Assembly: GCA_051251645.1 (NCBI GenBank)
Contig: JBPOEY010000002.1
Location: 70,093-134,092, forward strand
Length of the DNA stretch: 64,000 bases
Origin: Litorimonas sp.
Lineage (GTDB): Bacteria; Pseudomonadota; Alphaproteobacteria; Caulobacterales; Maricaulaceae
Direction of reading: 5' to 3'
The position numbers and the translations under genes are program-made. Positions 18,639-32,285 of this stretch are shown piece after piece. The notes beneath the pieces are model-generated. The model searched no databases. It was not told the DNA's origin and worked only from the letters and a program-made list of their open reading frames with translations. The number at the start of each line of letters is the position of its first letter. Positions within the stretch are counted from its first letter, which is position 1.

Positions 18639-20357
18639 TCATAAAGCCGCATTTCGTCCGCAAAAGCCGCTTGTCAGACGCCCCACCCCATCGCTATAGG
18701 CGCGCTCTGCTTTGGCGTGCGGCCGTGGCGGAATTGGTAGACGCGCAGCGTTGAGGTCGCTGTGGGGTAACACCCGTGGAAGTTCGAGTCTTCTCGGCCG
18801 CACCATTACTTCATTTTGCATGTTCATGCTCCCTAACACCTTGAATGGTAACGAGAAATCGTGGTTCGAGAACCCCTTTTCGGGGCAATAGGGTAAAGCC
18901 TTAGGTAGGGCGAGCTTGAGCAAGAGCCTTTGCTTGGCAAATTCGCCACTTTCCCAGAGTTTCCAAGGCATTGTCAGGAATTGCATTGCAGCCTGAAACG
19001 CCGTTTCAAAGGGTTGTGGGGGTTCGAGAGGCTGTGTAGCCCTATTCTCTAAATCACGCTTTTGCGTTTCGAGAAGATCGACTTCTTTCTCATAGGCCGC
19101 AATCACGCGATCACTCGTACTGTTCATGATACGGTCGATAAGTTTTGTGATTTTTCCATCTATCACCGCGACGCTTTCAACACTGACACTCTGCTGCGCT
19201 TTGAGGCTGTCTAAGCGTGCATCCCAAATCTTGCGGAACATGGCGCTGGCCGCAGCAAGGAGCTGTGGACGCGGCGTGAGGCTTTTTGCAATTTCACCAA
19301 AGCCGTCTTCAATCCGCTCTTTACGAATGGACTTGCCATAGCGGTCACAGCCCTTCTGTTGACAGGTGTAGTAGCCATACTTCTTGTAACGCCCCTTCGA
19401 CCATGCAGACGTCATCGGCGTGTCACAGCATGAGCACGATACGAAATGGCGCATCGGGAAATCTTCATGAACATGGGCGCGGGCGGGTTTGGGCGATTTA
19501 CCGTCGAGACGATCTTGGATTTTTTGCCACGTCTCCAAACTGATCAGCGGCTCATGCTTTCCACGGAGCATGTGAATGTTCCACTTTTTGATCGTCATGT
19601 GTCCAGCGTAGAGCGGCTGGCGCAAAACATTGAACGGGTATTGATGGGACAGGGGTGTTTTGCGGCTGCCCATGATTGACGCATGACCGCTTAGAAATCG
19701 TCTTACATCAGCGCCCGTATCGAAACGCCCACTGGCGTAGCCCTCCAACGCCTCGCGAATGATGGAAGCGTTCGGCTCGTCAGGCGTGATGATTTTGCCG
19801 CCGTCAGAGGCCTTCTGAAATTTATAGCCGACGGGCTGATTGAACAGCCAATAGCCTTGATCAACACGGGCGCGCATCTTCTGGATAGTTTGCCGACGGT
19901 TTTGTTGGCGTTCCAATTCACCTTGCGCGGCAAGGATGGTTTCGATGAAGTTGCCTTCGGGCGTGTCCTCAAACTTGAAGTTTAGGCACTCAACAGTTGC
20001 GCCACGGTCTTCCAACGCTTTGCGGAGTTGCAGATGAAACACCGTGTCACGCGCAAAGCGTTTTAGATCATCAAAGATCACCAAAAATTGCTCATCCGGT
20101 TGCGCATCAAGAAAGGCAAGAAGGGCAACCATACCGGGGCGCTTCATGTAATCGCCACCGCCTGACACATCATCGGGGAATACGGCTGTCACCGTATATC
20201 CTTTATCTTCCGCATAGCGGCGGCATCGAAGCTCTTGGCTTTGCAAGCCTGACCCTTCGGTTGTTTGCTTCGTTGAGGACACGCGGCAGTAGATCAGCGC
20301 TTTTCGCGGTGCGTTCTGCGCAGGATGAGATGGGACTCGTTTTGCGTTTTGGGTCAT
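18639..20357 (-). CDS. Large serine recombinase (resolvase + recombinase + Zn ribbon)
   Basis: ALIYCRVSS catalytic Ser motif, DDLKRFARD, PVGY and CSCC...CQQKGC Zn ribbon. The ORF reads through the tRNA antisense to a stop at 18639. Confidence 0.92.
   Translation of the reverse strand: MTQNAKRVPSHPAQNAPRKALIYCRVSSTKQTTEGSGLQSQELRCRRYAEDKGYTVTAVFPDDVSGGGDYMKRPGMVALLAFLDAQPDEQFLVIFDDLKRFARDTVFHLQLRKALEDRGATVECLNFKFEDTPEGNFIETILAAQGELERQQNRRQTIQKMRARVDQGYWLFNQPVGYKFQKASDGGKIITPDEPNASIIREALEGYASGRFDTGADVRRFLSGHASIMGSRKTPLSHQYPFNVLRQPLYAGHMTIKKWNIHMLRGKHEPLISLETWQKIQDRLDGKSPKPARAHVHEDFPMRHFVSCSCCDTPMTSAWSKGRYKKYGYYTCQQKGCDRYGKSIRKERIEDGFGEIAKSLTPRPQLLAAASAMFRKIWDARLDSLKAQQSVSVESVAVIDGKITKLIDRIMNSTSDRVIAAYEKEVDLLETQKRDLENRATQPLEPPQPFETAFQAAMQFLTMPWKLWESGEFAKQRLLLKLALPKALPYCPEKGFSNHDFSLPFKVLGSMNMQNEVMVRPRRLELPRVLPHSDLNAARLPIPPRPHAKAERAYSDGVGRLTSGFCGRNAAL
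18719..18805 (+). tRNA. tRNA-Leu(GAG)
   Basis: Acceptor GCGGCCG/CGGCCGC-ACCA, D-loop GGAATTGGTAGAC, anticodon stem CAGCG-TTGAGGT-CGCTG, long variable arm, GTTCGAGTC T-loop. Upstream TTGTCA...GCTATAG promoter-like sequence. Confidence 0.97.
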
Positions 20358-30361: not shown

Positions 30362-30419
30362 TCTGATTTCTCATTGATGCGATGCTAATGATTACCTATA
30401 AGCCATTCTGGAGGGTAGA

Positions 30420-30608
30420 ATGGATAAGGTTTTTGGTGTTTTGGTTTCTGCTGTCTTGCTGACCGGCTGGATTTGGATTTTTGGTCAAACGGATAGCGTT
30501 TATATTCAAGCGGGCATGATTGTTTTTAGCATTTTGGGTGGTTGCTTGATGGCCTCGCAATCGGATGACGAACACGACGTCGATGAAGATGTTGAGATGA
30601 TGTCGTGA
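30420..30608 (+). CDS. Small two-TM protein with acidic tail
   Basis: GGAGG RBS; two hydrophobic helices followed by DDEHDVDED. Confidence 0.6.
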   Translation: MDKVFGVLVSAVLLTGWIWIFGQTDSVYIQAGMIVFSILGGCLMASQSDDEHDVDEDVEMMS

Positions 30609-30841
30609 TGCCGCAACCAAAGAGTTATAGAAAGTGCGTATCAGATTGCATCAAAAAATATGGTAGCAATCTTCCTTATATCGCCAGTGCCATTATTATT
30701 GTGTCTTTACCAATAGCCTTTTTCGACGGAGGGGCTACGGCAGCAAGCGTCGCAATTGTTTTAGCCTCACTGGGTTATGGGAACGTAAGCGTTTCACTTA
30801 CGACTTGTCTATTGCGATGCCTAAGAAAAAAGAAACGCTAG
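30605..30841 (+). CDS. Small membrane protein with basic tail
   Basis: Overlaps the previous stop; hydrophobic core; LRKKKR C-terminus. Confidence 0.5.
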   Translation: MMPQPKSYRKCVSDCIKKYGSNLPYIASAIIIVSLPIAFFDGGATAASVAIVLASLGYGNVSVSLTTCLLRCLRKKKR

Positions 30842-31035
30842 CCAGGGTTTGGTACGGATTTTCTGTTTGATTTTGTCTTTTTATGCATGAAACCTTGAGC
30901 TAGTAAGTAACTCGACAATCCTCCAAAAACAACAATTGATAGGGTTGGAGCAAGCGGCATAGCTAAAATACACGCCGCACCAGATACGGTTGCGCCCAAA
31001 TATAAAGCTGATCTCTTATTAAATATTTTTTTCAT
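30838..31035 (-). CDS. Small two-TM protein with basic tail
   Basis: GAGGAG RBS; hydrophobic hairpin; upstream palindrome TTGTTATA-A-TATAACAA (31051-31067). Confidence 0.6.
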   Translation of the reverse strand: MKKIFNKRSALYLGATVSGAACILAMPLAPTLSIVVFGGLSSYLLAQGFMHKKTKSNRKSVPNPG

Positions 31036-31086: not shown

Positions 31087-31692
31087 TTACAACTCCATTT
31101 CATACAAATCCCGAATTTCTCCATCCTGAATACATAAATACTCTAGCGTCTGTTTCTCGCTCGTATGGCCGAAGGCGGCCATGAGGAGGGCGACGGGGCG
31201 GTTGTTTTGGACGCGTTGATGATAGCCCCATGTTTTGCGCATGGTGTGCGTCCCGTAATTTCCTTTGAGGCCGATGTCTGCGCACCAGCTTTTCATTTTA
31301 TGATTTGCAGCCGAGACTGTGAGGGCGCTTCCCGATCTTTGAGAGCGGAATAGCGGGCTGTCAGGGCTTGCGTGGGGATGAACAGCGAGCCAACGCTCCA
31401 TACTTTCAACAACGGTTCTATTGAGTGTTATCGCGCGATAGCGACCTGATTTTGACTGCTTAAGGTCGAGACGGTCGCCAACGTTCAAATGAGCAACATG
31501 ACCGACCTTAAGGGAAAGAATTTCACCTGCGCGATACGCGGTATTGATGCCAAAAGTGAACATACACAGATCACGCGGATTATCCGACAATAGGGCCTTG
31601 ATGGCCTGAATGTCTTCCAGATGGCGGATTGGCTCAACCTTGATGGAGGAGCCTTTCTTAGGGTGATTTGGGTTGCGTTTTTTCACTGCCAT
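31087..31692 (-). CDS. Short tyrosine recombinase (catalytic domain only, 201 aa)
   Basis: YRAGE, K(Q)SK, HTMRKTWG, FGH and C-terminal EY give the R-K-H-R-H-Y set. Confidence 0.92.
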   Translation of the reverse strand: MAVKKRNPNHPKKGSSIKVEPIRHLEDIQAIKALLSDNPRDLCMFTFGINTAYRAGEILSLKVGHVAHLNVGDRLDLKQSKSGRYRAITLNRTVVESMERWLAVHPHASPDSPLFRSQRSGSALTVSAANHKMKSWCADIGLKGNYGTHTMRKTWGYHQRVQNNRPVALLMAAFGHTSEKQTLEYLCIQDGEIRDLYEMEL

Positions 31693-31716
31693 TCGACTAG
31701 GATAACAGCGAAAATA

Positions 31717-31750
31717 AATACATCAACTTTTATTGATAAGTTGATGTATT
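31717..31750. promoter_or_regulatory. 13-8-13 palindromic tyrosine-recombinase-type site (site 1)
   Basis: AATACATCAACTT-TTATTGAT-AAGTTGATGTATT with perfect arms, 25 bp upstream of the recombinase ATG. Confidence 0.75.
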
Positions 31751-31840
31751 ATGAAAACCCTTTATCGGTCAAGGCTTTTCGAAAGGCGGCTCAAGAAAAT
31801 TTATGCCATTTTCCCTGTGTGTCCCCGCACTAGCTAGGAT

Positions 31841-31866
31841 CATCAACTTTTCAATAGAAGTTTATG
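31841..31866. promoter_or_regulatory. Second recombinase-type site, inverted relative to site 1
   Basis: CATCAACTTT-TCAATA-GAAGTTTATG is 23/26 identical to the reverse complement of 31721-31746. Confidence 0.65.
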
Positions 31867-31885
31867 ACTGCACGAGGAGAACAAC

Positions 31886-32239
31886 ATGCAGATTGCCGCC
31901 GTTCAATGGAGCACCCTTGACCACATTCACGATGTGGAACCTATCAACAATGCCGACGAAGCGTGCCTGACGGAAATTCGTCATGTGCTGACCAAGTACG
32001 GCAACCTTAAGCGTTTTGGTGTGGCTCTGCTCCACAATCATTTTGAGCTAAGTGACGATGAAGTCATGATGGAAACGACTGATCTTGATCAGCGCACACA
32101 TGTCGTCCGCCCGATGACGCAAGCTGAAATCGATAAAAACAATATCGAGGTTCAATCGACCATCGTGACGTTTGATGAGACGGGCTATCATCGCCGCTGT
32201 GGGTGTGATCCACGCGCCACCGGACACCATCACAAGTAA
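31886..32239 (+). CDS. Hypothetical protein with LLHNHF motif and C-terminal CGC...HHH
   Basis: GAGGAG RBS; own terminator downstream. Confidence 0.8.
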   Translation: MQIAAVQWSTLDHIHDVEPINNADEACLTEIRHVLTKYGNLKRFGVALLHNHFELSDDEVMMETTDLDQRTHVVRPMTQAEIDKNNIEVQSTIVTFDETGYHRRCGCDPRATGHHHK

Positions 32240-32256: not shown

Positions 32257-32285
32257 AAGCTCCCGTTTTATAGCGGGAGCTTTTT
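32257..32285 (+). terminator. Intrinsic terminator
   Basis: AAGCTCCCG-TTTTATAG-CGGGAGCTT followed by TTT. Confidence 0.8.

What the first reader, a model, noticed from the sequence alone, without database searches (positions are those of the whole stretch)
31690..31890. Candidate invertible DNA switch beside a FimB/E-sized tyrosine recombinase
Seen: between the 201-aa recombinase (minus) and a divergent gene at 31886 lie two palindromic sites. Site 1 has loxP-like 13-8-13 geometry with perfect arms (AATACATCAACTT-TTATTGAT-AAGTTGATGTATT). Site 2 (31841-31866) is 23/26 identical to the reverse complement of site 1, and the asymmetric 6-bp cores are exact reverse complements (TATTGA vs TCAATA). 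Known: tyrosine recombinases invert DNA between sites with matching cores in inverted orientation, and FimB/FimE are ~200-aa catalytic-domain-only enzymes of this type. Inference: the 114-bp segment 31737-31850 flips and switches expression of the 31886 gene versus the recombinase and small membrane genes on a defence island. Caveat: palindromic arms match in any orientation, so only the core carries orientation information.
Basis: partly seen in the sequence, partly recalled or inferred. Interest (0 to 1): 0.85.

Follow-up and report, generated by a model that had tools for sequence, protein, structure and literature searches.

The report
Portable flip-switch promoter with tiny recombinase
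A 201-residue recombinase gene on a mobilizable island sits next to a 114-bp promoter-bearing DNA segment flanked by two loxP-like sites, and comparison with about 30 related loci indicates the segment can be flipped to turn a neighbouring gene on; this appears to be an undescribed, widespread family of a well-known kind of switch.

Summary
Two 13-8-13-type palindromic sites lie at 31717-31750 and 31841-31866. Their central hexamers, TATTGA and TCAATA, are exact reverse complements. They are the only two such sites in the 3.5-Mb genome.

The recombinase belongs to a large family of about 200-residue enzymes found in many phyla, mostly on plasmids and mobilizable islands.
- In 32 related loci the same site pair lies upstream of the gene, always inverted.
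- Spacing falls in helical steps: 120-123 bp, 131-135 bp, and single cases of 113 and 143 bp.
- The central 6 bp match perfectly in every pair although the hexamer differs between loci. Arm positions match only 75-100%. This is the signature of a strand-exchange region.
- A conserved sigma-70-like promoter sits inside the segment against one inner arm. It faces the recombinase in most lineages, including this window, and the divergent gene in at least two.
- The divergent gene starts 10-50 bp beyond the distal site, so it has no room for its own promoter. It usually encodes a small exported protein.

The enzyme is not a FimB/FimE member. No orientation polymorphism was seen among about 45 contigs. 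This family was not noted elsewhere in the scan.

The parts
31087..31692 (-). Gene for a 201-aa tyrosine recombinase with a catalytic domain only. The true start may be the GTG two codons downstream.
   Evidence: PF00589 at E 8e-19. R54, K81, H149, R152, H176 and Y185 are conserved in a 49-member alignment and align to the XerA/XerH catalytic residues. The AlphaFold model has pLDDT 88 and its best fold matches are XerA, XerH and Cre catalytic domains. Close relatives start at the MKKRN position.
31717..31750 (.). Proximal recombination site (site 1): 34 bp with 13-nt perfect inverted arms. The inferred 6-bp crossover region is TATTGA at 31731-31736.
   Evidence: Sequence; pattern searches; a homologous site is present upstream of the gene in most family loci.
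31737..31850 (.). Candidate invertible segment of 114 bp between the two crossover regions. It includes both inner arms and the promoter.
   Evidence: Paired inverted sites 113-143 bp apart in 32 loci. The promoter-bearing end lies in opposite orientation in L082-L091 and L013.
31746..31772 (-). Sigma-70-like promoter inside the segment. The -35 is TTGACC (31772-31767) and the -10 is TAATAC (31751-31746), with a 15-nt spacer. In this assembly it points at the recombinase gene.
   Evidence: The bipartite motif cTTGAC-N15-TAnnAT is conserved and anchored 3 nt from the AACTT of the inner arm in most of 29 loci. The generic promoter scan, which requires a 16-18 nt spacer, did not list it.
31841..31866 (.). 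Distal recombination site (site 2). The crossover region is TCAATA at 31851-31856, and the outer arm is weaker.
   Evidence: Sequence. It is the only other genomic copy. Distal sites generally have a less palindromic outer arm. Homology with L080 and L081 starts within 5 bp of the start of this site.
31886..32239 (+). Target gene: a 117-aa protein of unknown function with no signal peptide. Its conserved C-terminus (CGCDPRxxGHHHK) is rich in Cys and His. The RBS GAGGAG lies at 31874-31879.
   Evidence: ORF and translation. No Pfam, NCBIfam or PADLOC hit. Fifteen homologues exist; those whose contigs were fetched lie beside this recombinase on related elements. Only 19 bp separate site 2 from the start codon.
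32257..32282 (+). Intrinsic terminator-like hairpin after the 117-aa gene, so the switched transcript probably covers this one gene.
   Evidence: Terminator scan: 11-bp stem followed by a T-run.

Best explanation
The stretch from 31087 to about 31866 is a self-contained DNA switch of about 0.8 kb.

Inferred mechanism:
- The recombinase binds the two 34-bp loxP-like sites, pairs them across a tight loop, and exchanges strands within the identical 6-bp centres (TATTGA / TCAATA).
- This inverts the 114-bp segment 31737-31850.
- The segment carries one outward-reading promoter whose -10 element abuts the inner arm of a site, so the promoter moves intact with the segment.

In the orientation assembled here the promoter reads through site 1 into the recombinase gene. 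The 117-aa gene at 31886 then has no promoter. After inversion the promoter would lie at about 31815-31841 on the + strand and read through site 2 into the 117-aa gene, and recombinase transcription would drop. Bound recombinase sits over the -10 and the start point, so it probably also represses the promoter.

Shown: the sites, their uniqueness, the intact catalytic residues, the family-wide pairing, the core covariation, the promoter motif and its two placements.

Inferred: that strand exchange occurs, its frequency, and its regulatory effect.
For: 1. The site pair is real and unique in the genome.
2. The catalytic set is intact and the fold is Xer/Cre-like.
3. In 32 loci with 41-88% identical recombinases (39% in the farthest family members) from Alpha- and Gammaproteobacteria, Verrucomicrobiota and Nitrospinota, two sites lie upstream in inverted orientation.
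4. The central 6 bp match perfectly in the 23 pairs, with 20 different hexamers. The between-locus match is 3.2 of 6, and the permutation p is below 1e-4.
5. When the partner site is chosen by arm consensus alone, 13 of 14 pairs score 6/6. The other scores 5/6 and is a single-contig SNP variant.
6. Per position over 32 pairs, identity is 100% at all six central positions, 75-100% in the conserved arms and 50-87% at the positions flanking the core. This fits a crossover region, not a nucleic-acid stem or an operator.
7. Spacing is quantised at 120-123 (n=20), 131-135 (n=10), 113 and 143 bp, as expected for a torsionally constrained synapse.
8. The conserved promoter sits inside the segment. It lies at the recombinase end in about 20 lineages and at the opposite end in the L082-L091 plasmid population and in L013, with alignable sequence.
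9. The divergent gene starts 10-50 bp from the distal site in most loci. In 24 of 30 its N-terminus looks like a signal peptide, and two (L122, L127) carry PEP-CTERM motifs.
10. L046 carries four sites with one shared core, in both direct and inverted pairs.
Against: - No read-level test was possible.
- About 45 contigs carrying identical or near-identical switches, from several natural populations, all had a single orientation within each population. Switching is therefore rare, biased, or masked by majority-rule assembly.
- Orientation is heavily skewed towards promoter-to-recombinase.
- The promoter spacer is 15 nt, which is short for sigma-70, and there is no expression data.
- A 114-bp invertible segment is near the lower limit for DNA looping and would probably need a bending protein.
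- Many more distant family members have only one site, so the ancestral role of the enzyme may be resolution rather than inversion.
Confidence: 0.7

Rival explanations
1. Multimer or cointegrate resolution module. The recombinase and its upstream site resolve dimers of the excised island or plasmid, as Cre/loxP and XerS/difSL do. The second site and any inversion are incidental and regulate nothing.
For: The family sits on plasmids with Rep and ParA genes and on mobilizable islands. Many distant members have a single palindromic site upstream. The closest sequence and fold matches are Xer-type enzymes.
Against: - Resolution needs no second site, and no identity between two sites on one molecule. 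Yet the inverted partner, its spacing and its perfect core match persist down to 41% protein identity.
- A promoterless divergent gene abuts the distal site in most loci.
- All Xer models score far below their cut-offs.
Confidence: 0.13
2. Operators only. The recombinase or another protein binds the two palindromes and loops the DNA to repress the divergent promoters, with no strand exchange.
For: The -10 element overlaps the inner arm, so binding should repress. Helically phased spacing also suits repression loops. No inverted form was seen in any assembly.
Against: - An operator model predicts the best conservation in the contacted arms, and does not predict perfect identity confined to the central 6 bp in strictly inverted orientation with free drift between loci.
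- All catalytic residues are invariant or nearly so across the family.
- The promoter end is found on either side in different lineages.
Confidence: 0.07
3. Gene-capture site. The distal site acts like an integron attI, where circular DNA carrying a compatible site is inserted. This would explain why the gene next to it varies.
For: Homology between the window and its closest relatives (L080, L081) begins within 5 bp of the distal site, and in L005-L007 about 26-34 bp outside it. In both trios it ends at the recombinase stop codon. The adjacent small gene differs among relatives at 87-88% recombinase identity. L046 has a direct site pair with an identical core around a 3.3-kb block. An earlier scan note describes a related tiny recombinase flanked by direct sites.
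Against: No third site or site remnant bounds the 117-aa gene in the window or in the paired loci. Inverted pairs cannot release a circle. The variable genes carry no attC-like element. This reading could coexist with the switch.
Confidence: 0.08

Closest known systems
E. coli fim switch (fimS with FimB/FimE)
   Same: A recombinase of about 200 aa that lacks the N-terminal core-binding domain is encoded beside a short invertible segment. The segment carries a sigma-70 promoter that turns an adjacent gene on or off.
   Different: - It is not a FimB/E homologue beyond the superfamily: 19.5 bits against a cut-off of 222.
- There is one recombinase, not two.
- The sites are 34-bp loxP-like palindromes with a 6-bp core, not 9-bp repeats with flanking half-sites.
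- The segment is 114 bp, not 314 bp.
- The promoter alternates between the target gene and the recombinase gene itself.
- The module is carried on mobile elements.
Cre/loxP of phage P1
   Same: Simple 34-bp sites, with 13-14-nt inverted arms around an asymmetric centre in which 6 bp must match. The enzyme probably needs no arm-type sites. The catalytic domain folds alike (TM 0.65-0.71). Inverted sites give inversion.
   Different: The enzyme lacks Cre's N-terminal domain (201 aa against 343). Sequence identity is about 20%. The natural sites occur as an inverted pair 120 bp apart around a promoter, rather than as a single site used for circularisation and dimer resolution.
RecV-dependent switches of Clostridioides difficile (flagellar, cwpV, cmr) and Tsr-type invertible promoters of Bacteroides
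   Same: Tyrosine recombinase-mediated inversion of promoter or regulatory segments of 150-300 bp upstream of surface-related genes (background from PMC7446863 and PMC9286219, listed).
   Different: Those recombinases act in trans on several switches in one genome. Here there is one switch, always in cis, forming a portable unit with sharply bounded homology. The host range is mainly marine and sediment Proteobacteria and other phyla.
XerS/difSL, XerH/difH and archaeal XerA/dif
   Same: A single recombinase acts on a palindromic site close to its own gene. These are the best sequence and structure matches.
   Different: All Xer models score far below their cut-offs. There is no core-binding domain. 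Two inverted sites with covarying cores occur instead of one dif site. The gene is accessory and sporadic: 3 of 200 genomes of the same family and 0 of 18 of the same genus.

Membership tests
Tyrosine recombinase superfamily (PF00589) | Catalytic R-K-H-R-H/W-Y set in a conserved C-terminal fold | tested here: met
   PF00589 at 68 bits against a cut-off of 27. R54, K81, H149, H176 and Y185 are invariant and R152 is over 90% conserved, and they align to XerA/XerH. Fold match to XerA, XerH and Cre at probability 1.0.
FimB/FimE-type DNA invertases (NCBIfam NF007371) | Sequence membership above the curated cut-off | tested here: not met
   19.5 bits against a cut-off of 222.
FimB/FimE-type DNA invertases (NCBIfam NF007371) | About 200 aa, catalytic domain without a core-binding domain | tested here: met
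   201 aa. The model shows a disordered residue 1-20 stretch followed directly by the catalytic domain. Xer and Cre targets align only over their C-terminal domains.
Invertible promoter switch (inverton) | Two inverted repeats flanking a short segment next to a recombinase gene | tested here: met
   the arrangement is conserved in 32 loci.
Invertible promoter switch (inverton) | Identical crossover sequence in the two repeats | tested here: met
   The central 6 bp are identical in inverted orientation in all 32 pairs aligned, with 20 distinct hexamers among the 23 pairs. One single-contig SNP variant (L091) scores 5/6.
Invertible promoter switch (inverton) | Promoter inside the segment and a promoterless target outside it | tested here: met
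   A conserved TTGAC-N15-TAnnAT motif lies at one inner flank, and the other flank scores low. The target gene starts 10-50 bp from the distal site. This rests on motif evidence only, with no transcript data.
Invertible promoter switch (inverton) | Both orientations present within a clonal population | not testable with these tools
Assembled contigs showed one orientation per population. Both orientations do exist between lineages.
Xer/dif chromosome or plasmid dimer resolution | Membership of the XerC/D/S/H/A families and a single dif-like site | tested here: not met
   XerA 44 bits against 220, XerD 35 against 330, XerC 33 against 335, XerS 18 against 267. Two sites, not one. The gene is accessory.
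Integron (IntI/attI/attC) | IntI-type integrase with attC-bounded cassettes | tested here: not met
   No integron-specific model reaches its cut-off. There are no further sites or hairpin arrays in the window.

The most novel reading that the evidence does not exclude
The 0.8-kb unit (distal site, promoter segment, proximal site, recombinase gene) is a portable switch cassette that moves between plasmids, islands and phyla. Its distal site also serves as an entry point where new genes, mostly for small exported proteins, are placed under phase-variable control. It would then be a hybrid of a fim-like switch and an integron-like capture site. Support comes from homology blocks bounded at or within about 30 bp of the distal site and at the stop codon, from the variable adjacent genes, and from family members with direct-repeat site pairs.
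Probability: 0.12. Interest if true: 0.8.

Novelty: new variant of a known kind. Interest (0 to 1): 0.56.

Why it matters
Invertible promoters are known mainly from host-associated bacteria and a few model systems. This would be a compact, self-contained family of such switches: a single 200-residue enzyme, two 34-bp sites and one promoter.

The family is widespread in marine and sediment bacteria of several phyla and rides on plasmids and mobilizable islands beside defence cargo.

The comparative data define the 6-bp crossover region and the allowed loop lengths without any experiment. That makes the system directly testable, and it is potentially useful as a very small orthogonal recombinase and site pair.

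It would also mean that mobile elements carry their own phase-variation device for small exported proteins. In this island the target is an uncharacterised Cys/His-rich protein.

Tried and rejected
- **Orientation polymorphism among contigs with identical proteins.** P0077 (10 contigs), P0072 (10), P0089 (8), P0095 (5) and P0124 (6) showed none.
  - Differences in called ORF lengths were gene-calling or assembly effects.
  - One contig has a 235-bp deletion, and one contains a run of Ns.
- **Minus-strand BLAST among 198 upstream regions.** This found only a 54-bp palindrome.
- **Close relatives.** L080/L081 and L213-L215 are all in the same orientation.
- **Plasmid collection.** The megablast search found no match.
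- **Viral contigs.** The scan gave only distant relatives.
- **Third site bounding the cargo or the 117-aa gene.** None was found in the window or in the paired loci. Only L046 has extra sites.
- **Cargo exchange at the recombinase 3' end.** L082 and L083 diverge 190 bp past the stop codon with no site there.
- **RNA or ssDNA stem between the two sites.** Rejected because only the central 6 bp are perfectly matched.
- **Tn3-type resolvase role suggested by L216/L217.** Rejected. I read the Tn3-family transposon as having inserted into and truncated the distal site (inferred from the sequence).
- **Structure of the 117-aa protein.** The model had pLDDT 57, too low for a fold search.
- **Literature.** Four searches found no description of this family. 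DeepInverton (PMC11602134) predicts marine invertons in bulk but names no recombinase family.

Full report
**Observation.**
- The intergenic region 31693-31885 separates a 201-aa ORF on the minus strand (31087-31692) from a 117-aa ORF on the plus strand (31886-32239).
- Site 1 (31717-31750) has perfect 13-nt inverted arms around an 8-nt centre.
- Site 2 (31841-31866) has one arm mismatch and matches the reverse complement of site 1 at 23 of 26 positions.
- The central hexamers, TATTGA (31731-31736) and TCAATA (31851-31856), are exact reverse complements.
- The arm pattern occurs twice in the window against 0.02 expected. It occurs nowhere else in the 3.54-Mb genome.

**Context.**
- The window carries a mobilizable island beside tRNA-Leu (18719-18805).
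- Its genes are a large serine recombinase, a VirD4/TraG coupling protein, a Gabija pair (GajA E 1e-207, GajB E 4e-171), an Mrr-like nuclease and a MobA/VirD2 relaxase.
- The island is therefore integrated by the serine enzyme, and the small tyrosine recombinase is an internal module.
- The tyrosine recombinase is accessory. It was found in 3 of 200 genomes of the same family and in none of 18 of the same genus.

**The enzyme.**
- It matches PF00589 only.
- All Xer, integron and FimB/E-type NCBIfam models score far below their cut-offs.
- The catalytic residues R54, K81, H149, R152, H176 and Y185 are invariant or nearly so in 49 relatives. They align with those of XerA and XerH.
- The AlphaFold model (pLDDT 88) is a catalytic domain preceded by about 20 disordered, conserved basic residues. 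There is no core-binding domain. Its best fold matches are XerA, XerH and Cre.

**The family.**
- The protein search returned 934 relatives at E <= 0.001, all 120 listed being about 200 aa.
- Loci came from Alpha- and Gammaproteobacteria, Verrucomicrobiota, Nitrospinota, Desulfobacterota, Planctomycetota, Acidobacteriota and Bacteroidota.
- Contexts are plasmids with Rep and ParA genes, and islands with relaxase, NikA-like and coupling-protein genes, often next to defence genes.

**The sites are conserved and paired.**
- Most loci carry a palindrome of the type yyAACTT-N8-AAGTTrr upstream of the gene.
- In 32 loci (recombinase identity to the window 41-88%) a second copy lies 113-143 bp away, always in inverted orientation.
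- In the 23 pairs scored, the central 6 bp of the two copies are perfect reverse complements. There are 20 different hexamers; the between-locus match averages 3.2 of 6, and the permutation p is below 1e-4.
- To avoid selecting on the core, I also chose partners by the arm consensus alone. With arm scores of 9-10, 13 of 14 distinct pairs score 6/6; the other scores 5/6 and is a single-contig SNP variant. Low arm scores give chance-level cores.
- Position by position over 32 pairs, identity between one site and the reverse complement of its partner is as follows:
  - 100% at all six central positions
  - 75-100% in the conserved arm positions
  - 50-87% at the two positions on either side of the core
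- Tyrosine-recombinase chemistry requires homology in the overlap region, so this pattern is what it predicts. It is not what an operator predicts (arms best conserved), nor an RNA or ssDNA stem (uniform pairing).
- The exclusive inverted orientation also fits an active enzyme, because direct repeats would delete the segment.

**Geometry.** Centre-to-centre spacing is 120-123 bp in 20 loci, 131-135 bp in 10, and 113 and 143 bp in one each. These are steps of about one helical turn. That points to physical synapsis of the two sites across a small loop.

**What the segment carries.**
- A conserved bipartite motif, cTTGAC-N15-TAnnAT, lies inside the segment. Its second hexamer ends 3 nt before the AACTT of one inner arm.
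- In the window it is TTGACC (31772-31767) and TAATAC (31751-31746) on the minus strand, pointing at the recombinase gene.
- Because it abuts the inner arm, it would move intact on inversion.
- In about 20 lineages it faces the recombinase.
- In the plasmid population L082-L091, and in L013, the homologous element lies against the distal site and faces the divergent gene. For example, the L082 flank aligns in reverse orientation with the L122 and window flanks, and L013 with L039.
- Both states of the proposed switch therefore exist in nature, between lineages.

**The target.**
- In most paired loci a divergent ORF starts 10-50 bp beyond the distal site, which leaves no room for a promoter of its own.
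- The inner flank on that side is not promoter-like in the promoter-to-recombinase state.
- In 24 of 30 loci the N-terminus looks like a signal peptide, and several proteins are weakly related.
- L122 and L127 carry PEP-CTERM motifs, L127 also with RTX repeats.
- Genes downstream of the recombinase are co-oriented in only about half of the loci. The conserved partner is therefore the divergent gene.
- In the window the target is a 117-aa cytoplasmic-looking protein with a conserved Cys/His-rich C-terminus, followed by a terminator.
- Its 15 homologues include members that lie beside the same recombinase on related islands.
- Its structure could not be predicted with confidence.

**Modularity.**
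- In the window/L080/L081 trio, nucleotide homology starts within 5 bp of the start of the distal site. In the L005/L006/L007 trio it starts 26-34 bp outside that site.
- In both trios it ends at the recombinase stop codon. Both flanks differ.
- The adjacent small gene is unrelated in L080 and L081, although the next gene, a 342-aa lipoprotein, is shared with L080 at 52%.
- The unit therefore behaves as a discrete cassette of about 0.8 kb.

**Evidence against, and limits.**
- About 45 contigs from several populations, plus close relatives, showed one orientation per population.
- The 15-nt promoter spacer is short, and the generic promoter scan did not list the site.
- Many distant relatives have a single site, so dimer resolution may be the ancestral role or an additional one.
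- In the flipped state the recombinase would lose this promoter, so return switching would need basal expression.

**Verdict.**
- The best explanation is an invertible promoter switch driven by a cis-encoded, catalytic-domain-only tyrosine recombinase acting on loxP-like sites with a 6-bp crossover region (confidence about 0.7).
- It works like the fim switch but is not a FimB/E family member. Its sites and fold are closest to Cre/loxP and Xer/dif.
- I found no published description of this family.
- Earlier scan notes describe the island (same window), an unrelated Clostridia switch of the same kind, and a related tiny recombinase flanked by direct sites.
- This family of paired inverted sites was not noted before in the scan.

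Noticed in passing
L046:583-5158 (Verrucomicrobia MAG contig): Four sites share the core TGGATA/TATCCA. An inverted pair flanks the recombinase gene itself (583 and 1403). A direct partner lies 3.3 kb away (3893). A further inverted pair 318 bp apart (3893 and 4211) precedes a 241-aa gene. This looks like a shufflon-like or cassette-like multi-site arrangement in the same recombinase family.
   Followed up: partly
L082:1460-1500, L216:960-1000, L092:1470-1500: In loci where the proximal site lies about 150-160 bp from the start codon, the right arm of the site plus its flank is repeated as a half-site immediately before the start codon. This suggests a duplicated or inserted unit of about 110 bp between the switch and the gene.
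   Followed up: no
L216 and L217:1-760: A Tn3-family transposase gene and what looks like its terminal repeat end inside the distal site. Only the inner arm remains, so this switch is probably locked in the promoter-to-recombinase state.
   Followed up: partly
L082 vs L083: from about position 2305: The same plasmid backbone, with an identical recombinase and switch, continues into two different downstream contexts: ParA side or Rep side. They diverge 190 bp after the recombinase stop, and no recognisable site marks the junction.
   Followed up: partly
window 31886-32239 and L206-L213: The 117-aa protein family has invariant LLHxHF, METTD and C-terminal CGC...GHxH motifs, which look metal-binding. 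In the contigs fetched it lies beside the recombinase on islands with NikA-like, relaxase and coupling-protein genes. It has no family assignment.
   Followed up: partly
L138 and L139: 255-330 of the 450 bp upstream of the recombinase gene: This is a single-site locus in which the palindrome extends to about 54 bp, roughly 24 nt on each side of the core.
   Followed up: no
L193-L205 (Alteromonas-type loci): Large AAA_15/OLD-type ATPase genes lie directly downstream of the recombinase on the same strand. A small gene plus a Gly-zipper/SH3 lipoprotein gene lie on the divergent side. Defence cargo next to this recombinase recurs across genera.
   Followed up: no
window 30396-30620 (-): The 74-aa ORF called a small membrane gene starts with TTG and its translation is not hydrophobic. 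It may not be a gene. The 65-aa ORF at 30838-31035 does look like a two-helix membrane peptide.
   Followed up: no
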